DNA of 64,000 nucleotides, taken from the IMG/VR virus record IMGVR_UViG_3300047562_004403, positions 1-64,000 of that record; one strand, 5' to 3'. Source of the stretch: a virus. Made by a program: the position numbers and the translations under genes. The notes under the pieces are model-generated. The model had not been told where the DNA came from, searched no databases, and was given only the letters and a program-made list of their open reading frames with translations. This document shows positions 24,400 to 64,000 of this stretch, one piece after another. Within the stretch, counting starts at the first letter, position 1. Each line of letters starts with the position of its first letter.

Positions 24400-24987
24400 A
24401 TGATTTCTCTTCCAGTGTCAAAACCAACCACAGTTGTTCTTTTAGGAGCAGATCGAGTCGGTAAATCTACCATTATTGAAAATACAGCCGAACGATTTAA
24501 ACGTAAAGATATTGATTTTTTGTCATTGCATTTTGATGGTCCTAAACCCTATCACTCTTCTCCTATAGAACAATATACCATCCCGTTTGATTTGGCAATT
24601 GATTCAATGCCAGAATTTATCCTATGCGATAGGGGATTTTCAGAGGTATGTTTTTATGACGAATTTAGGAGACATATTTCTATTTCGCATGAATGGGCCC
24701 AAGTAGCCGAATCATATTTCCTTGAGAAGAGCCGAAATGTAAAAGTTTTTCTATTGGAGAGGGACTGGGATTGGGCCCAACCTCATCACTTTGAGGAGGT
24801 AAAAAAAGAAGAGCCTAACGCCACTGCTTGGTGGATTAAAAATCGGATGAAAGCCAGAGAGGCAGAGCACTATGCCTATTACGATTATATGCATAATTAT
24901 CTCAATAACCATTCTCTTCTTCCACACACGGTTCTCAGAGATGTTGAATATGATTTCAGTCTGTTTGATTTGATTACCGATGTTTAA
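24400..24987 (+). CDS. deoxynucleoside monophosphate kinase (thymidylate-kinase-like P-loop)
   Basis: VVLLGADRVGKST P-loop and ILCDRGFSEVCFY (TMK-type DR motif). Confidence 0.7.
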   Translation: MISLPVSKPTTVVLLGADRVGKSTIIENTAERFKRKDIDFLSLHFDGPKPYHSSPIEQYTIPFDLAIDSMPEFILCDRGFSEVCFYDEFRRHISISHEWAQVAESYFLEKSRNVKVFLLERDWDWAQPHHFEEVKKEEPNATAWWIKNRMKAREAEHYAYYDYMHNYLNNHSLLPHTVLRDVEYDFSLFDLITDV

Positions 24988-50154: not shown

Positions 50155-50892
50155 GTGTCCAATCTCCTACTCATATCTGATGTTCACTCTAGAGACGATG
50201 CGCTCTTCCGCCTAATCGATAAACTCTCTAAGCCAATCAATTCAGGAGCACATATCGTATTTCTCGGGGACTTGTCAGATTGTAGAGATAAATTATATAG
50301 GCCTCAATGTTCTTTTCTTAAAGTATATAATTTGGTAAGACAACTTTGCGATGAAGGGTATGCCACTCTTCTTCACTCAAACCATGGTCAAAATTTAACA
50401 GATTACTTTTTAAATCGTCGAGACGTTCGTAAAAATATTGTAGGATTTAAAGATACAATTAATGAAATCGAGACTCTGGACAAACCTATTCAGAACGAAA
50501 TGATTCTGTGGTTGGATTCAAGACCTCTTATATACACTTATAATTCCGAAAGCGGAAAAACATATAAAATAGCCCACGCTTTTTATCAAAAAGATATTGA
50601 AGCAAAATACTCCGAAGGAGGTATTACTCCGGAGGAGTTAGATTTTACGCTAAGAGGAAGAAAATCGTCCTGGTTTTGGAAAGGACGCAAAATAACTAAA
50701 CGAACAGGATTCTGGAGAAATCCGGATCGTTGGGGAGCCAACGGATCAGACGTTCTCTGCTCGGGGCATTGGGCCACAACATTAGTCGAATCTAACTGCG
50801 TGGTTAATGATCCTGGCGGAGATGCTACTGACGGAACTCTAGGAGTTTTTGATTGTAATAATCACAACTTAACTATTTACGAAAATAAATGA
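50155..50892 (+). CDS. calcineurin-like metallophosphoesterase
   Basis: ISDVH, GDLSD, SNHG, AHA and SGHW motifs. Confidence 0.75.
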   Translation: MSNLLLISDVHSRDDALFRLIDKLSKPINSGAHIVFLGDLSDCRDKLYRPQCSFLKVYNLVRQLCDEGYATLLHSNHGQNLTDYFLNRRDVRKNIVGFKDTINEIETLDKPIQNEMILWLDSRPLIYTYNSESGKTYKIAHAFYQKDIEAKYSEGGITPEELDFTLRGRKSSWFWKGRKITKRTGFWRNPDRWGANGSDVLCSGHWATTLVESNCVVNDPGGDATDGTLGVFDCNNHNLTIYENK

Positions 50893-51896
50893 CTAGCATT
50901 CTTGACCATAATAAGATGGTCTTTAAAAAAGACAATGGATTTGATTTTCCAGAATTTTATGATTATTATGAACGTACTGTAGCTAGCGTATGGCGGCACC
51001 AAGAGGTGGCAATGGAGGGAGATCTTAGAGATTGGCAATTCAACTCAACACCGGACGAAAGAGCCGTTATAGCCGGCATTTTAAAGGGCTTTGTAAGCGC
51101 TGAGTTGGGAATTGGTTGTTACTGGGCCGATGAGGTTTGTCGCATTTTCCCCAAGCCTGAGATCCAGGCAATGGCCCGTGCCTTCTCATTCTTTGAGACA
51201 ATTCACGCTGCTGCCTACTCCTATCTTAATGATGTTCTTGGCCTTAAGGAATACGAGGAGTTCATCAACGATCCTGTTGCCTGTTCCAAGATCGATACTT
51301 TTTTTCAAAAATACCCAGACAAAGTTTCTCTCGCCGTGTTCTCAGGAGCCGGAGAGGGCGTATCACTATTTAGCTCATTCGCTGTATTACTAAGTTTTAA
51401 CAAAGATGGACGTTACAAGGGCCTCGCGCAGATCATCTCGTGGTCGGCGATTGACGAGCAGACGCACTCGGAAGCAGGGTGTAAGTTATTCCGCGAACTT
51501 ATCAACGAGACTGGAATCAGTAAAGAGGAGGAAGAAGCGATCTATGAGGGCTTCCGTCTTGTGGTGGGCAAAGAGTTCGCTTTTATTGACCACATTTTTA
51601 ATGTTGCATATATTGGCTCGATTAACGCTGATGAGTTGAAAGCTTACATAATGAATCGTGCCAATGAACGACTTCTTACGCTTGGATTGCAACAAATCTT
51701 CCACCTATCTACTGAAGAGCTTTCAAAGGCAAAAACTATTAGCGCTTGGTTTGAGCCTATGATTAAAGGGGCTAGTAATTCTGATTTCTTTGCTCAAAGT
51801 AAATCTGGTGATAATTACGTAGCTAAACCTTCTCAGGATTATATGAGCGTAGATCTTACAAGCATAGATCTAGAAAAATGTCTTTCTTATACATAA
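50889..51896 (+). CDS. nrdB: ribonucleotide reductase class I beta subunit
   Basis: W..QEV.M..D..DW, ETIHAAAY, GEGVSLFSSF, DEQTH, DFFA. Confidence 0.92.
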   Translation: MTSILDHNKMVFKKDNGFDFPEFYDYYERTVASVWRHQEVAMEGDLRDWQFNSTPDERAVIAGILKGFVSAELGIGCYWADEVCRIFPKPEIQAMARAFSFFETIHAAAYSYLNDVLGLKEYEEFINDPVACSKIDTFFQKYPDKVSLAVFSGAGEGVSLFSSFAVLLSFNKDGRYKGLAQIISWSAIDEQTHSEAGCKLFRELINETGISKEEEEAIYEGFRLVVGKEFAFIDHIFNVAYIGSINADELKAYIMNRANERLLTLGLQQIFHLSTEELSKAKTISAWFEPMIKGASNSDFFAQSKSGDNYVAKPSQDYMSVDLTSIDLEKCLSYT

Positions 51897-51902
51897 AAAT
51901 TT

Positions 51903-52106
51903 ATGGCAATTCAACCTCATCCGGACAGAGTTGAAAAACTCATGGCAACTGACCACGGCACGGTGTGTTTAATTACAGATAACCGAGCCGATTTATACAT
52001 AAAAAAATCTAAAGAAAAACTTAATAAACCCCCGGCAAATAGGCTTTCGAGGCCATGCGGCGGAAAGGGAGGATTTGACGATTATGTCGAGCGATGGTAT
52101 GGATGA
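51903..52106 (+). CDS. small hypothetical protein
   Basis: 67-aa ORF filling the gap after nrdB. Confidence 0.5.
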   Translation: MAIQPHPDRVEKLMATDHGTVCLITDNRADLYIKKSKEKLNKPPANRLSRPCGGKGGFDDYVERWYG

Positions 52107-52509
52107 TTTTGTAAAACCTGAGGGTTGGAAAGTTAAAGGTCGGGATCAGGGCGGCAGAAACTATTCCGACTCCGGAGAGCAATGGAAGCAATGGAAAGAT
52201 TCCCCATACGAAGTAAGTAGTAGTGGTAAAGTTCGTCGTAAAGGCGATGCCGAACACCGTAAACCTCGCGATGATGATCGTAAACACCAACGTGTTAATC
52301 TTACTTGGAATGGTAAGCGAGAAGAACCGCCTTTACATCAAATGGTGATGGAATTATTTGGCCCACCTAGGCCCAAAGGGAAACATATTGTTATCCTTCA
52401 CAAGGATAATGATGGTACAAATAATGCAATTTCTAATCTGAAATGGGGAACTAGATCTGAGAACGTACAACAAGCCCATGACGATGGCTTAATTAAAAAT
52501 AAAAAGTAA
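52099..52509 (+). CDS. NUMOD4-HNH endonuclease
   Basis: EQWK...YEVSSSGKVR (NUMOD4); LHQMVMELF...ILHKDNDGTNNAISNLKWGTRSEN (HNH_3). Confidence 0.85.
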   Translation: MDDFVKPEGWKVKGRDQGGRNYSDSGEQWKQWKDSPYEVSSSGKVRRKGDAEHRKPRDDDRKHQRVNLTWNGKREEPPLHQMVMELFGPPRPKGKHIVILHKDNDGTNNAISNLKWGTRSENVQQAHDDGLIKNKK

Positions 52510-52562
52510 TCGCGTAGTTGTTAGTAGATTAGTTACTAACTAACAACTATGCTACTTTATTT

Positions 52563-52571
52563 TGTTATAAT
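52563..52571 (+). promoter_or_regulatory. sigma70-type extended -10 promoter (TGtTATAAT) for nrdA
   Basis: Located 21 nt upstream of ATG 52593. Confidence 0.55.
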
Positions 52572-52592
52572 ATAGAACCAATTAAAATTACT

Positions 52593-54506
52593 ATGTCCGA
52601 ACCCCAAGTCCCCTCGTGGATGTCAAAAGAAGCCATCGATACCCTATCGAGAGGATATCTATATCAGGGTGAGACGCCCAGAGGTATGTATGAAAGGGTG
52701 GCTAATCAAGCCGCTAAATTACTCAATTACCCCGAGCTCTCAGAAGATATTTTTGAAGTACTATGGAGGGGATTTCTTGGCTTAGCAACTCCCGTGGCGA
52801 GTAACTTTGGCACTTCGAGGGGGCTCCCCATCAGTTGCTACTCTAATCACGTCTCTGATTCCGTACCCTCTATCTACTCCCACCTGAAGGAGTCAGCAGC
52901 TCTCTCCCAGCATGGTGGCGGAGTGGGTACCTACTTTGGAGACATTCGTCCCGCTGGGGCTCCTATCTCATCAGGGGGAAAGAGTACAGGTATAGTGCCC
53001 TGGATGCGGCAATATGATCAATGCGCGGCCGTTGTCTCCCAGGGTGGAGTAAGACGCGGTAGTTTCGCTCTATACCTACCCATTGACCATCCTGATTTGC
53101 CTGAAGTACTTCGTGCTAAAGACCATTCACAAGGCGATCCACGCGACTTTATTGATAGCAACGTGGCCGTAACAGTAACTGATGAGTGGGTAAAAGAATT
53201 GCTCGCGGGCGATAGAGACAAACAAAAACTCTTTGGCGAGGTACTTAAAGCCCGCCTTGTGTCAGGGTCTCCTTACATCATCTTTATTGACAATGCCAAC
53301 AAGGCCAATCCAGATTGCTACACACAACGTGGCTTAAGTGTTAAACTATCAAATTTGTGTAGCGAAATTTTTCTCCATACTGATGAAAACCATACTTTTG
53401 TATGTGTTTTATCCTCGCTAAATCTTTCTCGATGGGATGAATGGAAAAATTGGACCGCTCCTGTAACAGGCAAAACTGTCCCTGAGTTGGCTGTGTATCT
53501 CCTTGACGCGGTTGTAGAAGAGTTTTGCCATAAGGCCGAACGTCTTACTTCCTTGGGTAGGGCTGTAAGATTCGCTCGCAAATCTAGGGCTTTAGGCCTG
53601 GGTACTATGGGTCTTCATGCTCTTTACCAATCTAAAAATTTGCCCTTCTCATCCGAAGGAGCTCGCGATCTAAACATTGAAGTACATAAATTTATCAAAG
53701 AGAAAGCGCAAAAGGCTTCTCGTGAGATGGCTATTGCCTATGGCGAGCCAGAATGGTGCCAAGGCACCGGCCTCCGTCATACCCATCTCATGGCAATTGC
53801 CCCAACCAAATCTAATTCCGTGATCTGTGGTGCCGGGAGCGAGGGAATTGAGCCTATTGACGCCAACTATTACGTAGCCAAGCAAGCTAAGGGGACATTT
53901 GTTCGTAAGAATAAATACCTAGTAGAACACTTGGAGCGCATCGGACGTAACACCGAAGAGACCTGGGAATCTATTCTAGAGTTTCGTGGATCAGTGCAAC
54001 ATCTAGATTTCCTTGATGCCCACTCTAAAGAGGTATTTAAAACTGCACGTGAAATTGACCAATTTGAGTTGATCCGTCAAGCCTCAGATCGACAAAAGTA
54101 TGTTTGCCAAGGTCAATCTATCAATCTCTTTGTCGATCCCGAATCTACACCTGAGTATCTTTTCAAGCTTCATTTAAGTGCCTGGAAAGGAGGACTTAAA
54201 TCTCTCTATTATTTGAAGAGTTCATCTTTGCTTATTAAGAAAAAACCATCAGGGCAACAAAAAATTGCCAAAATTATCACCAAACAAGAATGCCCTTATT
54301 GCTCCATGGCTAAGTCACTTCTCCGTAGTCAGGGTTGGACAATTAACGAAGTAGATCGGATGAATGTTCCCGATTCTGAATGGCATTGGAAAACCGTTCC
54401 GCAGATTTGGCTCAATGGTCAGCATGTTGGTGGTTATACCGACTTGGCAGAAAAACTCGGTCATAGGGAAAAATCTTATGGTGAATGTGTGGCCTGTGAG
54501 GGTTAA
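52593..54506 (+). CDS. nrdA: ribonucleotide reductase class I alpha subunit, without ATP cone, with an internal glutaredoxin domain
   Basis: LPISCY, GGGVG, NLCSEI, MAIAPT, KSLYY; then CPYC...TVPQIW...VGGYTDL; terminal CVACEG. Confidence 0.92.
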   Translation: MSEPQVPSWMSKEAIDTLSRGYLYQGETPRGMYERVANQAAKLLNYPELSEDIFEVLWRGFLGLATPVASNFGTSRGLPISCYSNHVSDSVPSIYSHLKESAALSQHGGGVGTYFGDIRPAGAPISSGGKSTGIVPWMRQYDQCAAVVSQGGVRRGSFALYLPIDHPDLPEVLRAKDHSQGDPRDFIDSNVAVTVTDEWVKELLAGDRDKQKLFGEVLKARLVSGSPYIIFIDNANKANPDCYTQRGLSVKLSNLCSEIFLHTDENHTFVCVLSSLNLSRWDEWKNWTAPVTGKTVPELAVYLLDAVVEEFCHKAERLTSLGRAVRFARKSRALGLGTMGLHALYQSKNLPFSSEGARDLNIEVHKFIKEKAQKASREMAIAYGEPEWCQGTGLRHTHLMAIAPTKSNSVICGAGSEGIEPIDANYYVAKQAKGTFVRKNKYLVEHLERIGRNTEETWESILEFRGSVQHLDFLDAHSKEVFKTAREIDQFELIRQASDRQKYVCQGQSINLFVDPESTPEYLFKLHLSAWKGGLKSLYYLKSSSLLIKKKPSGQQKIAKIITKQECPYCSMAKSLLRSQGWTINEVDRMNVPDSEWHWKTVPQIWLNGQHVGGYTDLAEKLGHREKSYGECVACEG

Positions 54507-55076: not shown

Positions 55077-55088
55077 TTTTTTTTAATC

Positions 55089-55571
55089 ATGGATCTTGTT
55101 AAGTTTATCAATGAGGGATTTAATGCCCAACAAAAGTATGCAAATAAAGTAGGAGAACTTGGCCCTAATGATTTGGCTGAGATTGATAAAATGGTAGCCC
55201 TAGGACTTCCCCAGCATGACGCTCTTCCTTTTCGTTATGCCAAAATGATTGAACATTTCGGCCACCTTATAGAGGAATCTATTGAGGCCCGGGTGTATGT
55301 CCCGCGCCGGAGTTGGAAGAATGGTGAGCGTAGTTTCATGGATAGCGATGAACTTCGCCGAGAGTTTATTGCTGAAATGTACGATATTCTTTTATTTTTT
55401 CGTGCTATTCTGGCGTATGCCGGGGTCAGTGGTGAGGAGTTTGCTCAGATCGCCGCTGAAAAACAGGCCTATAATCAAGTAAGACCAGATCATAACGTAA
55501 ATGGAACTGCCTCAGTTATTGCCAATCCATCAGAAGAACTCCAAGGTTTTTGTGAATCTGCTTCGTTTTAA
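55089..55571 (+). CDS. all-alpha dNTP pyrophosphohydrolase (dimeric dUTPase / dCTPase gp56-like / MazG superfamily)
   Basis: EESIEA...SWK...EFIAEMYDILLF...EK..YN..R motif set. Confidence 0.7.
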   Translation: MDLVKFINEGFNAQQKYANKVGELGPNDLAEIDKMVALGLPQHDALPFRYAKMIEHFGHLIEESIEARVYVPRRSWKNGERSFMDSDELRREFIAEMYDILLFFRAILAYAGVSGEEFAQIAAEKQAYNQVRPDHNVNGTASVIANPSEELQGFCESASF

Positions 55572-55582
55572 TTGAATTTATA

Positions 55583-55762
55583 ATGCTTATTCCTCGTCAG
55601 CGACTTATTCAGAGCATAGATCTATGTTTTTGTGATGCATGCGATGGTAGAGGATTTCTTATTCTTGAAAAAAATTCGCCGGATGGGCGTATATTACCCA
55701 ATGAAATAAAGGAGTGTGAAGTTTGCGATGGTACCGGAAAACATAAAAACAATCAGACCTAA
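55583..55762 (+). CDS. 59-aa zinc-finger protein with two DnaJ-type CxxCxGxG motifs
   Basis: Manual translation: MLIPRQRLIQSIDLCFCDACDGRGFLILEKNSPDGRILPNEIKECEVCDGTGKHKNNQT. Confidence 0.65.
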   Translation: MLIPRQRLIQSIDLCFCDACDGRGFLILEKNSPDGRILPNEIKECEVCDGTGKHKNNQT

Positions 55763-56213
55763 TACACAAGTATTAGTTCTTAACGCATCCTATGAACCTC
55801 TTCACATCACAAGCTGGAAAAGAGCTATTATTCTACTTTTAAAGGAAAAAGCTGCTATAATCTCAGCAAAAGTTATCCGACTCGTGGAATATATAAGAAT
55901 TCCTTATATTAAAATCAACTCTGTTAAGCCATCGCGCAATTTAATTTATAAAAGAGACGGGCACAAATGTCAATATTGTGGTTCGACAAGGCGTTTAACA
56001 ATTGATCATATAATTCCAAAAAGTCGCGGAGGACAAGATACTTGGGACAATATGGTCGTAGCATGTTCCTCATGCAATATAAAAAAGGGAGATACATTGC
56101 TCGAGCAGACAGGAATGAGATTAATTAAAAAACCTTTTACCCCTACCAATAAATTTCTTTTGAATCTTATTGATTCAGAGTCCGCGGAATGGACTCAATA
56201 TGCTATAGGTTAA
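55716..56213 (+). CDS. HNH endonuclease (McrA/HNH_5-like, cyanobacterial type)
   Basis: VLVLNASYEPL, RDGHKCQYCG, LTIDHIIPKSRGG, VACSSCNIKKG. Confidence 0.88.
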   Translation: MKFAMVPENIKTIRPNTQVLVLNASYEPLHITSWKRAIILLLKEKAAIISAKVIRLVEYIRIPYIKINSVKPSRNLIYKRDGHKCQYCGSTRRLTIDHIIPKSRGGQDTWDNMVVACSSCNIKKGDTLLEQTGMRLIKKPFTPTNKFLLNLIDSESAEWTQYAIG

Positions 56214-56215
56214 AG
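56208..56215 (+). promoter_or_regulatory. late-promoter variant GGTTAAAG ahead of the riboswitch
   Basis: Ends 9 nt before the first aptamer. Confidence 0.5.
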
Positions 56216-56224
56216 AGTTAATAG

Positions 56225-56322
56225 ATCGTTCATCGAGACTTAGTCTCGACGGAAGTAAGCCGACTCGGAACGGATCGTTCAGCCACAATTAATCTGGCCG
56301 CAAAAGCCGACTGAAGGAACGC
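56225..56322 (+). ncRNA. tandem glnA-type glutamine riboswitch (two aptamers)
   Basis: Aptamer 1: ATCGTTCA-TCGAGAC..GTCTCGA-CGGAAGTAAG...GGAACG (56225-56272). Aptamer 2: ATCGTTCA-GCCA..TGGC-CGCAAAAGCCGACTGAAGGAACGC (56274-56322). CGTTC/GAACG form P1; both lie upstream of a DUF4278 gene. Confidence 0.85.
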
Positions 56323-56355
56323 ACCAATACCATAATAAGTAATGGAGCAAACCTA

Positions 56356-56508
56356 ATGTCTAAACTAATTTACAGAGGCGTAGCCTACGACCCTCAAGAT
56401 CGTTTCTTTCAAAATCAAGAGCAAATTCAACAACAAGCCCAGCAATTACCACCTCATACTAAAGTATATAGAGGAGTAAAAGTTGTTGAGGAAAATAAAA
56501 ATGAATAA
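56356..56508 (+). CDS. DUF4278-family small protein
   Basis: MSKLIYRGVAYD...KVYRGVK; GGAG ribosome-binding site at 56344. Confidence 0.8.
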   Translation: MSKLIYRGVAYDPQDRFFQNQEQIQQQAQQLPPHTKVYRGVKVVEENKNE

Positions 56509-56617
56509 ATCTATTAACGTTCTTCAGTTAATAAAAGAAAAAAAGCAAAAAGAAGAGCGTCGTAATAAAGCCTCCCTGGCACAAATAACAGGGAAGTTCA
56601 ATGAACAACCAATATAA
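56501..56617 (+). CDS. 38-aa basic helical peptide
   Basis: MNKSINVLQLIKEKKQKEERRNKASLAQITGKFNEQPI; start overlaps the upstream stop. Confidence 0.55.
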   Translation: MNKSINVLQLIKEKKQKEERRNKASLAQITGKFNEQPI

Positions 56618-56759
56618 ATATCATTTTGATGATATGGATAAAGATAGTAGGCCTCCTGCTTGCTATCTTTTGAGGTACCGAGGATGTGTATATTGGTCTT
56701 GCTATAGAATACAACTCAAAGAATGGTTTGAAAAAATATTGTGTATAGAAATCGATTAA
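56601..56759 (+). CDS. 52-aa peptide with a YRG motif
   Basis: MNNQYKYHFDDMDKDSRPPACYLLRYRGCVYWSCYRIQLKEWFEKILCIEID; followed by a terminator. Confidence 0.6.
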   Translation: MNNQYKYHFDDMDKDSRPPACYLLRYRGCVYWSCYRIQLKEWFEKILCIEID

Positions 56760-56765
56760 AGTTCG

Positions 56766-56797
56766 AAAGAGAGGAGTAAGTGCCTCTCTTTTTTTTT
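56766..56797 (+). terminator. intrinsic terminator
   Basis: AAAGAGAGG-agtaagtg-CCTCTCTTT followed by a long T run. Confidence 0.75.
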
Positions 56798-56810
56798 GCC
56801 ACGCGCAACA

Positions 56811-57353
56811 ATGACTTTTTATTTTTCCTTTAGTAAAGAAAAAGTATTTGAGATATTCTGGAAATTTTTTAGACTTTTTATAGATCCTGTTCTAGACTTT
56901 TTAAATTCTAAAATTTTAAAAAAATATGGATTTAAAAACTTACAGGTTGTTTTTGATGAGCTGGATATTTTTTGGTTAAGAAATGGTCCTCATAAAAACT
57001 ATTCCGAGTCTCAAGTAAGATTGATTATCTCGATGTTTCTTAAGGCAGCAGAAGATGAGCACATAACCCGGAAAGAACTTATTGCCTTAGTGGATTATGT
57101 TCAAAGAAAATGGACAAAATCTGAAGCTTTAAACAAAGTGCTTATAGCCACGGATGAAGTCATTGAGGCTCGTGTAGAAGCCACTATAGATCAAGCCGTT
57201 GAGCTTTATGAGAAGACCTACGAGGAAAAACCACAAACCCCTGAGGAGTTTATCGCGAATACTGCAGAAATCATCTTCCATGAGCCGGATGGGAGCGAGG
57301 CTCAGGCGCTCCTTGGTGGAATGATGCAAATTCGCAACAAACTAATCCATTAG
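56811..57353 (+). CDS. hypothetical protein
   Basis: Helical ORF converging on the MTase gene. Confidence 0.55.
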   Translation: MTFYFSFSKEKVFEIFWKFFRLFIDPVLDFLNSKILKKYGFKNLQVVFDELDIFWLRNGPHKNYSESQVRLIISMFLKAAEDEHITRKELIALVDYVQRKWTKSEALNKVLIATDEVIEARVEATIDQAVELYEKTYEEKPQTPEEFIANTAEIIFHEPDGSEAQALLGGMMQIRNKLIH

Positions 57354-57357
57354 ATTT

Positions 57358-58572
57358 TTATAACGCCCAGACTGGTTCCATAGGGGCTTTAGTGGCCGTG
57401 TTATTTTGGCGAAGAATCTTATAACTCCCATCTTGCTTGGTCTCCGGATCAATCCATTCACGATTGCCCTCTAAAGCTTCAATGATCTCACCCACCCAAT
57501 CTGCAGCAGTTGTGCATGGGACGTTCTGACAGATGACATTACTGTGCTTAGTTGGAATATGGACTTTGGTGGCGTAGTCCGGTGGAAAGCCCATCAGTGC
57601 TAGGCCTTCAGCCACTGTAAGCCAACGATCCTCATAGGGATGCATAAGCATCGGAAGACTCTTCCACATAAGCGCCTGTGTGCGTACCCATGCAAGTTTC
57701 ATGCTTCCGTCCATGATATTTTTTCCGGCACGTTTTTTCTCTAAAGTATAATTAAGCCAACGATTTATCCTCTCATCCCTTACGACTCTGCAGGCCTCCT
57801 CAAGCCAACCGGAGTCATAGATCACATTCCATACACTTACCATGCGCTTAGATGCTACATGGGCGAGAATGTCTTGTTTTGTAGAGCCGGTGTATTTGGA
57901 TTCAATAAATTGCCATAAAGGATCGGAGGAAGGAATGGGTTTATTACTCACGGATTCCGATGGGGCAAAATCACCTTTCTTGAGGAACTGATGGAAAGGC
58001 GTATATGGTTTTTTAATCGGCTTGAGTACGGGGACTTTGCTACCTTGCCACAAGAAAAAGAAACTCCGTGTCCGTTCTTGCGGGATTCCATGGTTAAGAG
58101 ACGTGGTTTTCACCAGACTCATAGTATAACCATGGCGCTGAGCAAGATTATTGATTCGCTCAGCAAATTCTTCCCCCATTTTAGAATATAGAGCCGGAGC
58201 ATTCTCTACAATCATGGCCTTAGGCTTAATTTTGGACATGGCAAACTCAGACCCATTGAGCATGTGCATATTGCTTGGAGCGCTACATCCTCGGGGATTA
58301 TTTACTTTGTCTCCGGACGTGGTATTTCCCATGCTTAATCCTGCGCAGGGCGGAAGACAAGTTACAATATCTACATGCTGAGTAGGATATTGCCCTTCAT
58401 CCAACTCGTAATATGGAACTTTGTCAAAGTACTTCAGGCAATACTGATCATTGGCTCCAAAAGTACTCCCCCAAGATGCAATCCACTCAGGATTTCTATT
58501 TAATGCTCTAGTGGCTCCAAGAACGCTACCCCCAACAAGAGGGATGACATGGCCATGGGTATATTTTGACAT
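57358..58572 (-). CDS. DNA cytosine-C5 methyltransferase-like protein with atypical SAM-binding motifs
   Basis: Motif IV PPCAGLS, VI VENAP, VIII GIPQERTRSFF, IX RWLTVAEGLALMGFP; motif I reads IPLVGG and motif X reads CQNVP. Confidence 0.8.
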   Translation of the reverse strand: MSKYTHGHVIPLVGGSVLGATRALNRNPEWIASWGSTFGANDQYCLKYFDKVPYYELDEGQYPTQHVDIVTCLPPCAGLSMGNTTSGDKVNNPRGCSAPSNMHMLNGSEFAMSKIKPKAMIVENAPALYSKMGEEFAERINNLAQRHGYTMSLVKTTSLNHGIPQERTRSFFFLWQGSKVPVLKPIKKPYTPFHQFLKKGDFAPSESVSNKPIPSSDPLWQFIESKYTGSTKQDILAHVASKRMVSVWNVIYDSGWLEEACRVVRDERINRWLNYTLEKKRAGKNIMDGSMKLAWVRTQALMWKSLPMLMHPYEDRWLTVAEGLALMGFPPDYATKVHIPTKHSNVICQNVPCTTAADWVGEIIEALEGNREWIDPETKQDGSYKILRQNNTATKAPMEPVWAL

Positions 58573-58594
58573 GGTATAATTACTTTATGGAGGT

Positions 58595-58632
58595 CTTTAG
58601 ACTGATTTGATTTAAATTGTTTGGGTTTAAAG
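58595..58632. promoter_or_regulatory. divergent late-type promoters (GTCTAAAG minus for the MTase; GTTTAAAG plus for ORF 58656)
   Basis: Motifs at 58602-58595 and 58625-58632, each ~22-23 nt from its ATG. Confidence 0.5.
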
Positions 58633-58655
58633 ACTAATTAAATAGCGCGTAGACT

Positions 58656-61001
58656 ATGCTCGGGGATTATGCCCCTCAGGATTGGGGAATCGCAGATAAA
58701 ACTGAATGGGTAGCGGAACAGCCACTTGAGGGCGAGGCTAGGATGCCTGCTCTTGAGGGCGTGGATGTTGTTGGGTTTTGTGAAGTAATAAGTTTTGCTG
58801 CTGGGCAATTTATACCTGACAATGTAAAGAAAATGGCTGCGGGACAACCTAACTACACGTTTAGAAATCCTCAAACAGGGCAGACTTATATCAAGAGAAA
58901 TGGGCACTGGACGGTTAGTCAACAAGATGGAAAGAAAATCCAAGAAAAGATGAGCAATGCGATAGATCGTGGTAATATACCAAAAGAACATCTAGACGAA
59001 CCAAGGTCTCGATCAGAAGTTAAACCTAAACTTAAATCTAAACCCAAACAAGAAACGCAACCCGAACCAGCACCTGAACCAAAACCCAAAGTCGAACAAA
59101 AACCAGAGATTCAAGAAAAAGCTCAACCTGATCCGCTCCAGGAGAAAAGCTCTGCTTCCAACATTTACGCAATAGATCAGTCAACTACAGAATCCATTTC
59201 CAGAGTGAAGAGCTTAAGCTCCGCACCGGCCACTGATCCTACTTTCAAATCAGGACAGATCGCTTTCAAGCAAATCGAAGACCACTACTCTAAAGTTTCT
59301 CCTTACGAAGAGGCCCTAACTAAGCTCTCCGGTAAAGGCGGATTCGGGAATAAGATTATGTCCGCGCTTTTAAAGGACTTTGATCTTGATCAACAAGTTG
59401 AGATTAAAAAGAAAACTTTTGTTACTCCAAGAAAGATCCTTGAAGACGCGGGCCTTGACGTGAATAACCCAGAAAAAGTTCAAAAGTTTCGTTCTTTATT
59501 GCAGTCCTTAAATTCTCACCTAGGTCCTGACGGCGGCTGGACAACCTCTCCGACTCACTCTCTGTCGGAAGGCCTTGGATTTTTTGAAGCAGAGCACGTC
59601 CAGCATAGATCTGATATGGCGGATCCAAAAACGTTACCTTCGGATCTAAGAGTTAAGGCTTTTTCAACTGGAGCGGACTTTCAGGATTCTTCAGCTTGGG
59701 CGGATATGACTCCTCAAGAGATCGATTTAGTATTCCATCTTCTACCCACAGCAGCGCAAACGTCATTGAAGAAGAGTGGATCTCCTGATAAGTACTATGA
59801 TCCTTTGTCGCCTGGAGGGCAAAGTAATAACCCTACAGATCTTCGCGGAAGACTAGCTTTGTTTATGTGGGCAAAACAAGGTGGTCGTGATGGTTACTCT
59901 CTGTCAGGAATGCAAAGATCGCCAGGCGAGTTTCAGGTGGAACACGTACAGGATCTATCGTCCGGTGGTAAAGATACCGCGTCTAACTTTGTGATGCTGC
60001 TAAAGAGAGTGAATGAACCACGTTCCAGTCTTCCACTACCTACATTTGTAGAGCAGGCGTCAAGAAGAGCCAAAGAAGTAGAGAAAAACCTGGCTGATCC
60101 AGGTGGAGAGTTTTTACAAACAAGACTTAAAGCTCTGCAGCAAAGAGGAGTGCATGACTCCCTTAGCGACAGTTCTAATCCTTTGCTTGGATCCATTTCT
60201 AACCTGTCTAGTCCAGAATTTTTTAAACTCGTGCAAAAAAATTCGGAGTCTCTTCCAGAAAATCTAAGACCATCCATAGATGAGTTTAATAAGTTCGCGG
60301 ATTCAGTCAATTCTATAACTGATCCAAGTACTAAGATTTCGGATCTAAGCGTTGCTCAAATGAACCAACTTCTTTCCTCACTGGAATCATTTGGCGCTAA
60401 CCCCGACAAAGTTAAAGAGTATCTTGGCAGGTCAGTGTTCAACAACTACCATGATGGTAATAGAATCCAATCTATAAAATCCGATGGAACTATAGTTGCT
60501 GGACGCGGGGGGACTAATTCCGCTCCGGCACCGCTACAGTTTCTTGAGAATAGACTTATGGGCAGACCAGAATCTGTATCTCCAGAGGAGTATGGTTCTG
60601 GGCTAGCGTTAGTATCCAATGCTCATGATAATATAAGAAACGCGAGAAATAAGCTCATCGAGAATGGCGGAGGAGATTTTTCGCAATTCCACGAGGCTTT
60701 AGGGGATTCTTTAATGACAATATGCGGATTAGACGAAGGGTCTCCTGAGTGGATACGTAATAGAAAGATTAGTACCAGAGACCTCTCTAGAACTATCGAA
60801 AATTACGTAGGTACTTTTCCACCAAATAGACCTGTTGGAGGCCAGCTCGCGAGCTTATACGTGTCCGCTGCTCTTGACTACCACGGGTTCAGCAAAGAAC
60901 AACTTGATAATCCCGACGCAATTAAGAAAAAAGCTGATAGAGTAAAAGTCTTAAAAATCAAATCCACCTTGGACCAAATAACTCAAGGTACTAAATCATG
61001 A
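58656..61001 (+). CDS. large protein with a central HNH-like motif, candidate virion/ejected protein
   Basis: FQVEHVQDLSSGGKDTASNFVMLLKRVN; Pro/Lys/Glu-rich linker; late-type promoter. Confidence 0.55.
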   Translation: MLGDYAPQDWGIADKTEWVAEQPLEGEARMPALEGVDVVGFCEVISFAAGQFIPDNVKKMAAGQPNYTFRNPQTGQTYIKRNGHWTVSQQDGKKIQEKMSNAIDRGNIPKEHLDEPRSRSEVKPKLKSKPKQETQPEPAPEPKPKVEQKPEIQEKAQPDPLQEKSSASNIYAIDQSTTESISRVKSLSSAPATDPTFKSGQIAFKQIEDHYSKVSPYEEALTKLSGKGGFGNKIMSALLKDFDLDQQVEIKKKTFVTPRKILEDAGLDVNNPEKVQKFRSLLQSLNSHLGPDGGWTTSPTHSLSEGLGFFEAEHVQHRSDMADPKTLPSDLRVKAFSTGADFQDSSAWADMTPQEIDLVFHLLPTAAQTSLKKSGSPDKYYDPLSPGGQSNNPTDLRGRLALFMWAKQGGRDGYSLSGMQRSPGEFQVEHVQDLSSGGKDTASNFVMLLKRVNEPRSSLPLPTFVEQASRRAKEVEKNLADPGGEFLQTRLKALQQRGVHDSLSDSSNPLLGSISNLSSPEFFKLVQKNSESLPENLRPSIDEFNKFADSVNSITDPSTKISDLSVAQMNQLLSSLESFGANPDKVKEYLGRSVFNNYHDGNRIQSIKSDGTIVAGRGGTNSAPAPLQFLENRLMGRPESVSPEEYGSGLALVSNAHDNIRNARNKLIENGGGDFSQFHEALGDSLMTICGLDEGSPEWIRNRKISTRDLSRTIENYVGTFPPNRPVGGQLASLYVSAALDYHGFSKEQLDNPDAIKKKADRVKVLKIKSTLDQITQGTKS

Positions 61002-61477
61002 ATGACAGATTTACAAGCGTTATAGAAAACACGCTCTATAAGTTAAATACAACTTTAGCAGACCTAGGGCTCTCAACAGACGAGCTTTACGCGTACGCCA
61101 AAAAATACAAGTTTAATACCAATGAGCTTGAATCTTTTATTACTGAAAAGCACAACAAAGCAAAAAAACAACCATCTAAAGTAAACCTAACAGAGTCGGA
61201 CTACTTGGAAATACTCAGAAGAAAAAAGCTAAGGGAAGGTGCCAATTACGCCGATTCCATGGTATTCTATAAAGGAAAAGCGCTGGGGCGCTGCCCGGCA
61301 GGAACAACACGCGCTGGTAAAACGTGCGTTCCTGGCGCCTCAGCTACGCCAAATGGCCCCGGGTATAAACAAACTGACCTCGGCGGATTATCGCAGGCTC
61401 AAGTCCAAGCTCTATCCAAAGCCAAATCCACCGAAGATATTATTAAAGCACATAAAAAATTTAACAAAAATGATTGA
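60998..61477 (+). CDS. hypothetical protein
   Basis: ATGA overlap with the upstream gene; GRCPAGTTRAGKTCVP mini-motif. Confidence 0.55.
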   Translation: MNDRFTSVIENTLYKLNTTLADLGLSTDELYAYAKKYKFNTNELESFITEKHNKAKKQPSKVNLTESDYLEILRRKKLREGANYADSMVFYKGKALGRCPAGTTRAGKTCVPGASATPNGPGYKQTDLGGLSQAQVQALSKAKSTEDIIKAHKKFNKND

Positions 61478-61709
61478 AAGAATTGCAAAGCCCGTCCGGT
61501 TTGATAAGGACGTGCCCTGGCTCGTAGTAGCCCATGATGGCGAGAAATTTTTCGTAGCAAAAGAAGATGTAATTGCCGAAGACCCAACAATGGAACTCAT
61601 CGAGATGGGAAGTCGATCCCTGCTCCAATGGGCCATAGAGTATCAGTATCCGCTTCGTAAATTCGTCAAGCTTCAGCGCCTTCTTGTGGAGAAGTATTTC
61701 GGACCCTAG
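61470..61709 (+). CDS. small hypothetical protein
   Basis: MIERIAKPVRFDK...; start overlaps the upstream stop. Confidence 0.5.
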   Translation: MIERIAKPVRFDKDVPWLVVAHDGEKFFVAKEDVIAEDPTMELIEMGSRSLLQWAIEYQYPLRKFVKLQRLLVEKYFGP

Positions 61710-61736
61710 ACAAATTTAACATGGTTGTGGTAAAAT
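61707..61736 (+). promoter_or_regulatory. sigma70-type promoter (TAGACA-18-TAAAAT, extended TG)
   Basis: Upstream of the ThyA-like gene. Confidence 0.5.
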
Positions 61737-61763
61737 GGTCTCATAACCCTAACAAGAGAGTCC

Positions 61764-62609
61764 ATGCCACAACCCTGTCTATCCTTCGACCTTCAGTATA
61801 TTAAAATTGCTCGTGAAATCCTTGATAATGGCATCGAGATTGTAGGTCGTAATAATCTCCGTTATAAACAAATTTTCGGACAAACAATCAAAGTTGATTT
61901 ACGAGATGGTTTCCCCGCGCTCACTCTTCGCAAAATGCCCACGCGTAACTTATTTCGCGAGTTTATGTGGGATATCTCGGGAGACTATAGGGTAAGCAAT
62001 CTCGGACCAGCAAAACATTTTTGGGACTTTCTCGCCGATGCCGAAGGCCGACTCGCAGGATCCTATGGACGTTCTTGGCGCTCCTGGCCCAAAGTCTGCC
62101 CAGAAGAAAGCATGGAATGGGAGAATTTTCGCAAAGAACCATTTGACCAGCTTAAGTGGATTTGGGAACAACTTCGCACTAATCCAACTAATCGCCAACT
62201 TGTACTTCAGACCGTAAACCCGGCATATGAGTCTTTGCATTGCCCAGGTTGTCATCCCTGCCTCGTGTTTAGTTCCGATGGCGCTCATCTCGATCTTCTT
62301 GTGACCGCGAGGAGCAATGACATGGCCACAGGAGTGCCCCTAGATATGTTTCGCTATGGCCTTCTCACCACCAAGATGGCTCAGGACGCTAATCTGATTC
62401 CGCGATTTGTGATGTTTGCCTCTGCCAATAACCACGTCTACTCTCAAAACGAACTTGCGATTAAGTCGATCATCACAAACTCCCCTATGACACCTTGTGA
62501 TGTTTGGATCAATAACGAAAAACCCATCTTCGATCTCGATCCAGAAACCGACTTCGAACTCATCGATTACACTTCCCATCCTGCCAAGAAAATGGATCTT
62601 GCCAACTAA
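61764..62609 (+). CDS. thymidylate synthase (ThyA)-fold enzyme with Asp at the Asn177 position; predicted dCMP C5-(hydroxy)methyltransferase
   Basis: DLRDGFPALT, REFMW, YGRSWR, DQL, PGCH catalytic Cys, RSNDMATGVPLD, NHVY, Y.SHP C-terminus. Confidence 0.8.
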   Translation: MPQPCLSFDLQYIKIAREILDNGIEIVGRNNLRYKQIFGQTIKVDLRDGFPALTLRKMPTRNLFREFMWDISGDYRVSNLGPAKHFWDFLADAEGRLAGSYGRSWRSWPKVCPEESMEWENFRKEPFDQLKWIWEQLRTNPTNRQLVLQTVNPAYESLHCPGCHPCLVFSSDGAHLDLLVTARSNDMATGVPLDMFRYGLLTTKMAQDANLIPRFVMFASANNHVYSQNELAIKSIITNSPMTPCDVWINNEKPIFDLDPETDFELIDYTSHPAKKMDLAN

Positions 62610-63883
62610 TGCCTCTACCTGAATACGATTATACCACTACGCTTCTTGAAGATGTATTTGAGCCCGTCATCGATCCTTATTGTCCGGTTTATGTCATTGA
62701 TTTTAAAGTATGTGCGCATTTTATCAATAATTATTCGGAAACCGCGGTGGATGTGGCAAATGGTTCTGAAGAAAATCTTCGAAAGATAATTCGGGCAATG
62801 TGGGCCTATAGGCTTAACCGCGGGCCTGATATGCTCAAACCCATGCCCTTTATAGGTCTTATTGCTGATGATTTTAAGGGTTCTCTTCCAGCCGATTTTT
62901 CAGAGGCCTCGGCGAGTGGCAAGGGGTACTGGAGACACATTGAAGCTCATAAACTTGACATGGCCGAGTATAAAGGTGGAAGGGGAGAAAAAACCGAATT
63001 TTTTGATCTTATCCAAGACGAGGGATATAAATACATTCAATCGCCCGGCTCCACATTCCATTATTTTGCCAAGGAATTTTTCGAAGCAGACGATATCGCA
63101 GGCCATGTCTGTAGATTAAAGCGTAAAGCTCGTAAGAACTCCAAACTTGCCAAACGTCAGATCCTATTAGGCACTCTTGACGGTGATTGGCAAGGCCTTG
63201 TCTCCGACGACCATGGAATCATTTGGGCAAATACCGGACCTTGGTTGCCTCGTTTACGCTCAGAACGTGAAGTTTGCGACTATTACCTGCGTAAAGAAGG
63301 AATGCATATTACATCGGCCAAAGGCTGCTATGACTTCAAAGTTGAATATGGTGATCTAGGAGATAATCTTTATCCAGGAACTCCATTGAGATTTTTTGAT
63401 CTATACAACGAGGATACCACTTGGCGCTTTACAAGCGATGATACTAAACGCCTACTTAAGGTGCTTGGTAGTACTACACCTTCTAATCGCCCGGATCATA
63501 TGGAATCTGCAAGGACTTTTCTTTTGCGAAAAGGGCTTTTTCTTCCTGAAATCCCTACAACTTGGCATGAAGACAAAACCTCATACTTCTCTAGGGCAAG
63601 AAAAGCCCGCATTGAAAATTCTCATCCGGAACTCACGGGGAGAAATAGAACAATTTGCATGGAGAAAATCTCCGATATGAAAAACTTTGAAAAATGCAAA
63701 GAACTTGCACTAGAGGATGTAAAAATACATTCCGAAATAAAAACCGAAACAGAACACTTACGTCAATGTAAAGAAATAGAGGATAAAAAATGTATCAAAG
63801 AACTTAGAACTATACTTCGTAGTCTTAAAGATTTGCGCTCTTCCATCAAAGAAGAATTATCAAAACTAATAACCAAATCTTGA
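62609..63883 (+). CDS. 5'-3' exonuclease / flap endonuclease (T4 RNase H-like)
   Basis: YVIDF, YKGGR, FEADDIAG, LDGDWQGL and GDLGDN acidic motifs; C-terminal coiled coil. Confidence 0.8.
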   Translation: MPLPEYDYTTTLLEDVFEPVIDPYCPVYVIDFKVCAHFINNYSETAVDVANGSEENLRKIIRAMWAYRLNRGPDMLKPMPFIGLIADDFKGSLPADFSEASASGKGYWRHIEAHKLDMAEYKGGRGEKTEFFDLIQDEGYKYIQSPGSTFHYFAKEFFEADDIAGHVCRLKRKARKNSKLAKRQILLGTLDGDWQGLVSDDHGIIWANTGPWLPRLRSEREVCDYYLRKEGMHITSAKGCYDFKVEYGDLGDNLYPGTPLRFFDLYNEDTTWRFTSDDTKRLLKVLGSTTPSNRPDHMESARTFLLRKGLFLPEIPTTWHEDKTSYFSRARKARIENSHPELTGRNRTICMEKISDMKNFEKCKELALEDVKIHSEIKTETEHLRQCKEIEDKKCIKELRTILRSLKDLRSSIKEELSKLITKS

Positions 63884-63909
63884 CTCAAATACCCCATATA
63901 GTCTATAAT
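63880..63909 (+). promoter_or_regulatory. sigma70-type promoter (TTGACT-18-TATAAT)
   Basis: Near-consensus -35 and -10 before ATG 63933. Confidence 0.55.
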
Positions 63910-63932
63910 AGCTTTATTCGCCAAATTTTTAT

Positions 63933-64000
63933 ATGCCAGAATCTAAAAACCAAGGGCATTCTTCGGCCAAAGAAACTATGGCCTCTGATGCAATTGGTCC
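63933..64000 (+). CDS. 5' fragment of an ORF running off the window
   Basis: MPESKNQGHSSAKETMASDAIG... open to the end of the window. Confidence 0.4.
   Translation, partial: MPESKNQGHSSAKETMASDAIG

What the first reader, a model, noticed from the sequence alone, without database searches (positions are those of the whole stretch)
61764..62609. ThyA homologue with the Asn177-to-Asp switch: a predicted dCMP-specific methylase in a cyanophage
Seen: the segment RSNDMATGVPLD aligns without gaps to E. coli ThyA RSCDVFLGLPFN, which puts Asp (GAT at 62343-62345) at position 177. Established: Asn177 selects dUMP, the N177D mutant of ThyA methylates dCMP, and T4 dCMP hydroxymethylase has Asp at the equivalent site. 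The rest of the protein looks like full-length canonical ThyA (E58, W80, Y94, C146, H207/Y209 equivalents and the C-terminal tail) rather than T4 gp42. Inference: it makes 5-methyl-dCMP, as in phage Xp12, or possibly 5hm- or 5-hydroxy-dCMP, so the genome may carry a replaced cytosine. An alternative is a dCMP -> m5dCMP -> dTMP route through a deaminase.
Basis: partly seen in the sequence, partly recalled or inferred. Interest (0 to 1): 0.85.

Follow-up and report, generated by a model that had tools for sequence, protein, structure and literature searches.

The report
Cyanophage cytosine-modifying thymidylate synthase look-alike
A gene that looks like ordinary thymidylate synthase in a TIM5-like cyanophage carries the active-site switch from dUMP to dCMP, so the phage very probably builds a modified cytosine into its DNA; sequence alone cannot settle whether the added group is methyl or a sugar-bearing hydroxymethyl.

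Summary
ORF 61764-62609 is a full-length ThyA-fold protein, and Asp (GAT 62343-62345) sits at the E. coli Asn177 position. The Asp is invariant in 89 of 89 family members and in 17 more distant viral copies.

The window is a fragment of an uncultured relative of cyanophage S-TIM5, whose 'ThyA' is 78% identical. Larger relatives also encode ThyX and a classical dCMP deaminase, so this enzyme is not needed for dTMP. It is accompanied by its own TMK/PPK2-like kinase family (window 24400-24987) and a weakly supported NTP pyrophosphatase (55089-55571).

The product is unresolved.
- **Active site and architecture point to a methylase:** no acidic residue at position 143, His147 and Asp169 kept, the full C-terminal tail kept, and a clade that sits beside canonical ThyA.
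- **Gene context looks like T4:** a second thymidylate synthase is kept, a T4 AGT-like DNA glycosyltransferase is present (coupled to UDP-galactopyranose mutase in one genome), no TET enzyme, and no DHFR in phage or host family.

I lean to 5-hydroxymethyl-dCMP followed by glycosylation (about 0.45) over 5-methyl-dCMP (about 0.37).

The N177D rule is published and already used at scale. This scan has flagged the same gene on several other TIM5-like contigs. I found no paper reporting modified DNA in this phage group.

The parts
61764..62609 (+). ThyA-fold enzyme with Asp at the Asn177 position; predicted dCMP-specific C5 one-carbon transferase
   Evidence: PF00303 at E 5.6e-51. PDB thymidylate synthases down to E 2.6e-34. 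AF2 model with pLDDT 95.1 superposes on the E. coli TS ternary complex 4gev_A: Z 35.8, rmsd 1.4 A, 260 of 264 residues, model residues 9-281 on chain 1-264.
62343..62345 (+). GAT codon, Asp194 = E. coli Asn177 position (pyrimidine specificity residue)
   Evidence: Asp in 89 of 89 family members.
62241..62255 (+). C-P-G-C-H motif: Cys160 (= E. coli Leu143), catalytic Cys163 (= Cys146), His164 (= His147)
   Evidence: In the family, position 143 is Cys in 83 of 89 (Thr 4, Ile 2) and His147 is kept in 89 of 89. The same holds in the 35-41% identity clade.
61707..61736 (+). sigma-70-like promoter candidate with an extended -10 (TG), about 27 nt before the start codon
   Evidence: 10 of 12 matches plus TG. 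This is a consensus match only, not shown to function.
62609..63883 (+). downstream gene; its ATG overlaps the TS stop codon. Annotated flap endonuclease in S-TIM5
   Evidence: phrog_26716 at E 7.9e-96.
24400..24987 (+). P-loop nucleotide kinase of the TMK/PPK2 kind (GxDRVGKST); candidate kinase for the modified dNMP
   Evidence: phrog_761 gives weak matches in all 5 TIM5-like records. BLASTP gives 27-30% identity over about 175 aa, E 1e-14 to 2e-24, to the kinase gene that lies at or near the TS gene in the distant clade. A family profile hits PPK2 at E 7.5e-6 and thymidylate kinases at E 7.6e-4.
55089..55571 (+). candidate all-alpha NTP pyrophosphatase (possible dCTPase); weak support
   Evidence: phrog_12184 at E 1.4e-4. 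PDB 2q73 at E 0.11, with shared EE..E and E..D motifs. No Pfam hit and no MazG Pfam match in the relatives.
57358..58572 (-). C5-cytosine DNA methyltransferase homologue about 3 kb upstream on the opposite strand; relation to the TS enzyme unknown
   Evidence: PF00145 at E 6.5e-16. phrog_116 at E 4.3e-26. Motifs read.
50889..54506 (+). ribonucleotide reductase small and large subunits (NrdB, NrdA-glutaredoxin); same nucleotide-metabolism block
   Evidence: Collinear with S-TIM5.

Best explanation
The gene encodes a folate-dependent ThyA-fold enzyme that acts on dCMP instead of dUMP. I give this part about 0.85.

**Proposed pathway.** Cys163 attacks C6 of dCMP and the one-carbon unit of methylene-tetrahydrofolate is attached to C5. 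The modified dCMP is phosphorylated by the phage's own TMK/PPK2-like kinase and built into phage DNA during replication. dTMP is made separately by the dCMP deaminase and ThyX that relatives carry.

**Product.** My lean is 5-hydroxymethyl-dCMP. The T4 AGT-like glycosyltransferase of TIM5-like phages would then glycosylate it on DNA, with glucose or, where a UDP-galactopyranose mutase is coupled to it, galactofuranose.

**Shown here:**
- the fold, the catalytic residues and the invariant Asp;
- the independent clade;
- the co-occurring genes.

**Inferred:**
- the substrate, from the published N177D rule;
- the product;
- incorporation into DNA and glycosylation.
For: **dCMP specificity**
- Asp177 is invariant.
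- Gln165 is replaced by Ala/Gly/Ser here. The four Asp177 reference enzymes I aligned also lack Gln there, while the four Asn177 hydroxymethylases have Gln or Asn.
- The N177D rule is published and has been experimentally applied to phage enzymes.

**Not a dTMP enzyme**
- ThyX is present in S-TIM5, G001 and G002, and in the distant-clade contigs G005 and G011.
- A dCMP deaminase is present in 6 of 9 records. The S-TIM5 enzyme is a solved deoxycytidylate deaminase, PDB 4p9c.

**Dedicated kinase**
- A homologous kinase gene lies at or near the TS gene in the distant clade and is dispersed in TIM5-like genomes.

**Hydroxymethyl plus sugar**
- S-TIM5 has an AGT homologue: Pfam PF11440 at 37.3 bits, above cut-off, and T4 AGT 1y6f at E 2.3e-14. 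It is also found in G002 and G021.
- In the complete genome G002 the AGT-like ORF overlaps the start of a UDP-galactopyranose mutase gene by 4 nt.
- The same mutase lies 2-3 kb from the TS and kinase genes in two distant-clade contigs.
- No TET/JBP in 5 records. A 2OG oxygenase occurs only in G001. So there is no evident way to oxidise 5mC on DNA.
- No DHFR in 9 phage records, nor in 6 and 61 picocyanobacterial genomes. A TS-type methylase would produce dihydrofolate.
- The two 5mC reference phages, Xp12 and PaMx74, have DHFR and deaminase beside the TS gene, only one ThyA-family gene and no ThyX.
Against: **Active site and architecture look like a methyl-forming TS**
- All six reference enzymes that add an oxygenated group have Asp or Glu at position 143, lack His147 and lack the canonical C-terminal tail. 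These are T4 gp42, RB69 gp48, SPO1 gp29, M6, ViI and phiW-14.
- This family has Cys143, His147 and a conserved M-[ED]-V-A-N tail that ends in the E. coli column.
- The model superposes end to end on closed ternary TS complexes.
- The clade is sister to canonical ThyA, not to any hydroxymethylase.
- The published L143 D/E correlate would therefore class it as methyl-forming.

**Limits of the context evidence**
- The window's own contig is about 49% complete. It carries no ThyX, deaminase or AGT, so the context comes from relatives.
- The dCTPase assignment is weak.
- No chemistry has been measured for any member.
Confidence: 0.45

Rival explanations
1. It is a dCMP methylase, a natural counterpart of the N177D/N229D mutants. 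It makes 5-methyl-dCMP with hydride transfer from the cofactor, and the phage DNA carries 5-methylcytosine as in Xp12. The AGT-like protein would then have another target or be unrelated.
For: - Full canonical TS architecture: the folate-contacting residues W80, D169, V262 and A263 are kept, and so are R21, E58, Y94 and H147.
- The C-terminal tail is conserved and modelled as in closed complexes.
- There is no acidic residue at 143. The bona fide methylases Xp12 and PaMx74 also lack one there (Asn143).
- The clade is sister to methyl-forming ThyA.
- Engineered N177D enzymes methylate dCMP, and 5 of 7 metagenomic Asp177 enzymes tested made 5mdCMP (papers read).
Against: - Relatives keep ThyX and a classical dCMP deaminase. 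Xp12-type phages have neither a second TS nor ThyX and obtain dT by deaminating the methylated nucleotide.
- No DHFR in the phages or in the host family, although this reaction yields dihydrofolate.
- The AGT-like DNA glycosyltransferase and the UDP-galactopyranose mutase have no acceptor on 5mC DNA, and no TET enzyme is present.
- It is a separate clade from Xp12.
Confidence: 0.37
2. It makes another C5-modified dCMP, for example 5-hydroxy-dCMP as in RB69/DLP3/RL38JI, which is then glycosylated.
For: The gene company matches the published RL38JI 5-hydroxycytosine cluster: a TS homologue, a nucleotide kinase, a glycosyltransferase and a UDP-galactopyranose mutase (paper read; my).
Against: - The published diagnostic D169N is not met: Asp169 is kept in 89 of 89.
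- RB69 gp48 has E143, T147 and N169 and lacks the tail.
- The folate-contacting residues are conserved here, whereas the methods of that paper analyse a flavin bound to the RB69 enzyme.
Confidence: 0.06
3. It is an ordinary dUMP-specific thymidylate synthase despite the Asp, redundant with ThyX, or an inactive remnant.
For: - It is annotated ThyA / thymidylate synthase in all S-TIM5-group records.
- All catalytic residues other than 177 and 165 are intact.
Against: - Asp177 is invariant across a clade down to 35% identity, which indicates selection for it.
- Gln165 is lost.
- The gene consistently co-occurs with ThyX and with a dedicated kinase.
- Strong conservation argues against a remnant.
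Confidence: 0.04

Closest known systems
Cyanophage S-TIM5 'ThyA' (AEZ65733.1, JQ245707.2) and the S-TIM54/61/66 orthologues (Aurunvirus)
   Same: 76.5-78% identical over 99% of the length. The active-site signature is the same, including Asp177, Cys143 and His147. The neighbours are the same: C5-MTase homologue, structural gene, two small ORFs, ThyA, flap endonuclease.
   Different: The window comes from an uncultured, more divergent relative: an IMG/VR contig of 79.8 kb, about 49% complete. The records annotate the gene simply as thymidylate synthase. I found no paper that comments on the Asp or on modified DNA in this group.
Xanthomonas phage Xp12 and Pseudomonas phage PaMx74 dCMP methylase (ThyA homologues; 5mC genomes)
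   Same: Asp177, Gln165 lost, no acidic residue at 143, and a C-terminal tail present. Both are predicted to act on dCMP before replication.
   Different: - Only about 30% identity and a separate clade.
- Xp12/PaMx74 have Asn143 and Pro147; this family has Cys143 and His147.
- Xp12/PaMx74 place a deaminase, DHFR and a hydrolase beside the gene and have no ThyX or second TS.
- TIM5-like phages have ThyX, a distant deaminase, no DHFR and an AGT-like gene.
Bacteriophage T4 hydroxymethylcytosine pathway (gp42 dCMP hydroxymethylase, gp1 kinase, gp56 dCTPase, cd, td, alpha-glucosyltransferase)
   Same: The logic of the gene set matches: an Asp177 TS homologue, a separate real thymidylate synthase, a dCMP deaminase, a nucleotide kinase, a possible NTP pyrophosphatase and a true AGT homologue.
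   Different: - gp42 is 24% identical, has Asp143 and Thr147, and stops about 40 residues earlier with no TS-type tail.
- The TS role is taken by ThyX, not ThyA.
- There is no DHFR.
- In one genome the glycosyltransferase is coupled to a UDP-galactopyranose mutase.
5-hydroxy-dCMP synthases (RB69 gp48, DLP3 gp80, RL38JI gp216; NAR 2026, PMC13326640)
   Same: A TS homologue with Asp177, a cognate kinase, glycosyltransferases and, in RL38JI, a UDP-galactopyranose mutase.
   Different: The diagnostic D169N is absent here. Those enzymes have Glu143, and RB69 gp48 lacks the tail.
[quoted passage not shown]
   Same: An otherwise canonical, full-length TS with Asp at the specificity position.
   Different: This is a natural enzyme with further fixed changes: Q165A, L143C, W83L, R127Q, C168N and F176L.

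Membership tests
ThyA-type thymidylate synthase fold family (PF00303) | Profile match above the curated cut-off over the whole domain | tested here: met
   173.7 bits against a cut-off of 24.3, profile positions 2-265 of 266.
ThyA-type thymidylate synthase fold family (PF00303) | Catalytic Cys146, phosphate-binding R21/R126/R166/S167, and E58, Y94, H207, Y209 | tested here: met
   All are present and invariant in 89 of 89 members. R127 is Gln.
ThyA-type thymidylate synthase fold family (PF00303) | Three-dimensional fold | tested here: met
   AF2 model pLDDT 95.1. Z 35.8 and rmsd 1.4 A over 260 residues to 4gev_A.
Canonical dUMP-specific thymidylate synthase (dTMP synthesis) | Asn at position 177, with Gln165 (recalled, not checked here, to orient Asn177) | tested here: not met
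   Asp177 in 89 of 89. Position 165 is Ala in 78, Gly in 8, Ser in 2 and Cys in 1.
Canonical dUMP-specific thymidylate synthase (dTMP synthesis) | dUMP to dTMP activity | not testable with these tools
   Needs an enzyme assay or thyA complementation.
Xp12-type dCMP methylase | Asp177 together with a TS-type C-terminal tail and no acidic residue at 143 | tested here: met
Xp12-type dCMP methylase | Same clade as Xp12/PaMx74 | tested here: not met
   The TIM5 clade (47-48 tips, support 0.92/0.885) groups with canonical ThyA. Xp12 and PaMx74 fall outside that 177-tip group.
Xp12-type dCMP methylase | Gene module: adjacent deaminase and DHFR, and no other thymidylate synthase | tested here: not met
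   Xp12/PaMx74. TIM5-like relatives: ThyX present, DHFR absent, deaminase far from the TS gene.
Xp12-type dCMP methylase | Product is 5-methyl-dCMP | not testable with these tools
   Needs LC-MS.
T4 gp42-type dCMP hydroxymethylase | Asp at position 177 | tested here: met
T4 gp42-type dCMP hydroxymethylase | Acidic residue at position 143 (published correlate of hydroxymethyl products) | tested here: not met
   Cys143 here. Asp or Glu in T4 gp42, RB69 gp48, SPO1 gp29, M6, ViI and phiW-14. Rule from PMC13326640.
T4 gp42-type dCMP hydroxymethylase | Loss of His147 and of the TS C-terminal tail | tested here: not met
   His147 and the tail are kept.
T4 gp42-type dCMP hydroxymethylase | Partner genes: DNA glycosyltransferase, dNMP kinase, dCTPase, separate TS and dCMP deaminase | tested here: inconclusive
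   The kinase is in the window. The NTP pyrophosphatase has only weak support. AGT, ThyX and deaminase are found only in fuller relatives, not on this 49% complete contig.
5-hydroxy-dCMP synthase (RB69 gp48 type) | Asn in place of Asp169 | tested here: not met
   Asp169 in 89 of 89. RB69 gp48 has Asn. Rule.

The most novel reading that the evidence does not exclude
This would be an independently evolved dCMP hydroxymethylase. It keeps the complete closed thymidylate-synthase architecture and lacks the acidic residue at position 143 that marks all hydroxymethylases compared here, having a C-P-x-C-H motif instead. It would prime glucose or galactofuranose decoration of cytosine in a widespread lineage of marine and estuarine cyanophages. 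As far as I could find, that would be the first hypermodified cytosine reported for cyanophages.
Probability: 0.42. Interest if true: 0.75.

Novelty: new member of a known kind. Interest (0 to 1): 0.55.

Why it matters
S-TIM5 is a cultured, sequenced cyanophage, and even its dCMP deaminase has a crystal structure. Yet I found no report that its DNA is modified.

If cytosine is replaced, several things follow:
- Restriction evasion and host-range limits in picocyanobacteria would need to be read in that light.
- Modified DNA is often under-sampled by some library methods, which might bear on why TIM5-like phages look rare in metagenomes. This is my own conjecture and was not tested here.
- Nucleotide and folate budgets during infection would differ from what is assumed.

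For enzymology, the clade tests the published residue rules. Its active site reads as a methylase, but its gene company suits a hydroxymethylase. Either outcome would refine product prediction for the many Asp177 homologues in viromes; 34 of the 145 further representative hits here carry Asp177.

Tried and rejected
Contexts of distant members came from IMG/VR loci instead.
- **Sequencing runs:** all 21 listed runs are kept as Logan contigs and no RNA holder is listed. No base-modification or expression signal could be read, and read laying was not used.
- **Papers:** Sabehi 2012 (PNAS) is not held. No supplements are held for PMC13326640. The TIM5 genome paper (PMC10087341) says nothing on thyA, thyX or DNA modification.
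- **Post-replicative route to 5hmC:** no TET/JBP in 5 records and a 2OG oxygenase only in G001, so I rejected it.
- **MazG Pfam:** no match in TIM5-like records.
- **AGT in the distant clade:** no AGT Pfam or S-TIM5 AGT protein match in the 16 distant-clade contigs, most of which are small fragments.
- **355-aa ORF between kinase and TS in L059:** no Pfam hit, no similarity to AGT or to an L072 ORF, no Atlas lead.
- **C5-MTase homologue:** no PDB hit by sequence.
- **Cys143-Cys146 distance:** the AF2 model file cannot be read in scripts, so the distance and the tail geometry could not be measured.

Full report
**1. The observation**

ORF 61764..62609 (+, 281 aa) matches Pfam Thymidylat_synt end to end (E 5.6e-51) and solved thymidylate synthases (best E 2.6e-34). 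The stretch RSNDMATGVPLD aligns without gaps to RSCDVFLGLPFN of E. coli ThyA. This puts Asp194 (GAT 62343-62345) on Asn177.

R21, E58, W80, Y94, R126, C146, H147, R166, S167, D169, G173, H207 and Y209 are all present. The protein ends in the same alignment column as E. coli ThyA.

An AlphaFold model (pLDDT 95.1) superposes on the E. coli ternary complex 4gev_A with Z 35.8 and rmsd 1.4 A over 260 of 264 residues, model residues 9-281 on chain residues 1-264.

**2. Where it comes from**

The window is part of a 79.8 kb IMG/VR contig, about 49% complete. Its closest named relatives are cyanophage S-TIM5 and S-TIM54/61/66, whose annotated ThyA is 76.5-78% identical and sits in the same neighbourhood.

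About 95 clusters at 90% identity form the family in public metagenomes. In the 89 members of at least 250 aa:

| Position (E. coli) | Residue in the family |
|---|---|
| N177 | Asp, 89 of 89 |
| H147 | His, 89 of 89 |
| D169 | Asp, 89 of 89 |
| L143 | Cys 83, Thr 4, Ile 2 |
| Q165 | Ala, Gly, Ser or Cys |
| W83 | Leu |
| R127 | Gln |
| C-terminus | M-[ED]-V-A-N conserved |

A second group of viral contigs, only 35-41% identical, carries the same signature.

In a tree of 185 sequences these two groups form one all-Asp clade of 47-48 tips (support 0.92/0.885). That clade is sister to canonical ThyA including E. coli. Xp12, PaMx74, T4 gp42, RB69 gp48 and the four 5hmU enzymes fall outside it. 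Among the 145 further representative hits, 34 have Asp177 and 111 Asn, so the switch has arisen several times.

**3. What the Asp means**

Three residue rules are published.
- Asn177 to Asp shifts preference to dCMP.
- An acidic residue at 143 correlates with hydroxymethyl products.
- Asp169 to Asn marks 5-hydroxy-dCMP synthases.

The sources are PMC13326640, PMC8670742 and bioRxiv 10.1101/2024.12.05.627091. The last two apply the Asp177 rule to hundreds of metagenomic sequences and tested some of them. By these rules the window enzyme is dCMP-specific, is not a 5-hydroxy-dCMP synthase, and lacks the hydroxymethylase mark.

I checked the references directly:

| Enzyme | Pos. 143 | Pos. 147 | Other |
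|---|---|---|---|
| T4 gp42 | Asp | Thr | no TS-type tail |
| RB69 gp48 | Glu | Thr | Asn169; no TS-type tail |
| SPO1 gp29, M6, ViI, phiW-14 | Asp (3 before the Cys) | Asn (after the Cys) | unrelated C-terminal extensions |
| Xp12, PaMx74 | Asn | Pro | short tail |
| This family | Cys | His | full TS tail |

MetaGPA found position 147 to be the second most discriminating site between modified and unmodified contigs. The retained His147 is therefore atypical for an Asp177 enzyme.

**4. Gene company**

The complete S-TIM5 genome also encodes ThyX and a dCMP deaminase that is a solved structure, PDB 4p9c. Other relatives show the same:
- ThyX in G001 and G002, and in the distant-clade contigs G005 and G011.
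- The deaminase in 6 of 9 records.

The dTMP route is therefore complete without this gene.

A P-loop kinase family with the motif GxDRVGKST lies at or near the TS gene in the distant clade. In at least one contig the order is Pol-gamma-like DNA polymerase, kinase, TS. It has a clear homologue in the window at 24400-24987 (E 1e-14 to 2e-24) and in every TIM5-like record searched. Its profile reaches PPK2 and thymidylate kinases.

ORF 55089-55571 is a weak candidate all-alpha NTP pyrophosphatase.

**5. Methyl or hydroxymethyl**

*For methyl:*
- the architecture and residues described in section 3;
- the position of the clade beside canonical ThyA.

*For hydroxymethyl:*
- S-TIM5 has a true homologue of T4 DNA alpha-glucosyltransferase (PF11440 at 37.3 bits; 1y6f at E 2.3e-14 over residues 5-258). 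It is also present in G002 and G021.
- In the complete genome G002 the AGT-like ORF overlaps the start of a UDP-galactopyranose mutase gene.
- The same mutase lies 2-3 kb from the TS and kinase genes in two distant-clade contigs.
- No TET/JBP enzyme is present, and a 2OG oxygenase occurs in only one relative. So 5mC could not be oxidised on DNA.
- No DHFR is encoded by nine phage records or found in 6 plus 61 picocyanobacterial genomes. A TS-type methylase produces dihydrofolate at every turnover; a hydroxymethylase and ThyX do not.
- The two 5mC reference phages differ on each count. They have DHFR and deaminase beside the TS gene, one ThyA-family gene and no ThyX. The NEB preprint explains that deamination of the methylated nucleotide removes their need for a second thymidylate synthase.

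I weigh these two lines as nearly equal and lean to hydroxymethyl plus glycosylation:

| Reading | Probability |
|---|---|
| 5-hydroxymethyl-dCMP, then glycosylation | 0.45 |
| 5-methyl-dCMP | 0.37 |
| Another C5-modified dCMP (e.g. 5-hydroxy-dCMP) | 0.06 |
| Ordinary dUMP-specific TS or remnant | 0.04 |

dCMP specificity itself I put near 0.85.

**6. Limits**

- The window's own contig lacks the regions where relatives carry ThyX, the deaminase and AGT. That part of the argument is by homology of genome organisation.
- No chemistry is measured for any member of the clade.
- Available sequencing runs are contigs only.

**7. Novelty**

The kind of enzyme is known and the rule is in routine use. 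New here are:
- an independent, widespread clade with an unusual signature (Asp177 with His147, Cys143 and a full tail);
- a phage lineage with no reported DNA modification;
- a conflict between residue rules and gene context.

Earlier agents of this scan flagged the same gene on other TIM5-like contigs, with similar and equally unsettled verdicts. I checked their leads on the kinase, the pyrophosphatase and the AGT-mutase pair myself.

Noticed in passing
window 57358-58572 (-): The C5-cytosine DNA methyltransferase homologue has intact catalytic motifs (PPC, ENA, QERTR). Its cofactor motifs are altered: motif I reads IPLVGG and motif X reads CQNVP. Its substrate is unclear if cytosine C5 is already substituted before replication.
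   Followed up: partly
L172:14-2184 (G002 about 6176-8346): In a complete TIM5-like genome the AGT-like gene and a UDP-galactopyranose mutase gene overlap by 4 nt. They sit between the gyrase and psbA, where S-TIM5 has AGT alone. This suggests a galactofuranose rather than glucose decoration in some relatives.
   Followed up: partly
L082 (G021:111247-112521, -): The AGT homologue of this TIM5-like contig, 65% identical to the S-TIM5 protein, has one in-frame TAG. It may be a pseudogene, a sequencing error or a recoded codon.
   Followed up: no
L059:479-4766 and L072:6722-10819: Two distant-clade contigs carry a cluster of UDP-galactopyranose mutase, TMK/PPK2-like kinase, unknown ORFs (a 355-aa one in L059) and the Asp177 TS. 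The unknown ORFs are candidates for a new DNA glycosyltransferase.
   Followed up: partly
L067:5846-10831: In this distant-clade contig the Asp177 TS and its kinase lie directly after a mitochondrial-type (Pol gamma-like) DNA polymerase (PF18136 at E 8.9e-58). S-TIM5 is known for the same polymerase type. Enzyme and polymerase may travel together.
   Followed up: no
window 62241-62252: Cys143 and the catalytic Cys146 form a C-P-x-C motif. It is conserved down to 35% identity, with a few Thr, Ile or Met replacements. PDB 1f4d, an E. coli L143C variant covalently modified at C143, shows that a Cys at this position can be covalently modified by a small-molecule ligand. A redox or regulatory role is conceivable but untested.
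   Followed up: partly
protein P0095 (447 aa, metagenome): One family member has an N-terminal NUMOD4 plus HNH_3 homing-endonuclease module fused to, or called together with, the TS domain.
   Followed up: no
window 54510-55076 and 55716-56213: Homing-endonuclease-like ORFs (phrog_655/314; an HNH Pfam domain) are interspersed among the nucleotide-metabolism genes between NrdA and the MTase homologue.
   Followed up: no
window 55000-64000: Near-identical sequence is held in freshwater, lagoon, marine and oyster metagenome runs from 11 studies. This suggests an estuarine or coastal distribution for this TIM5-like lineage.
   Followed up: no
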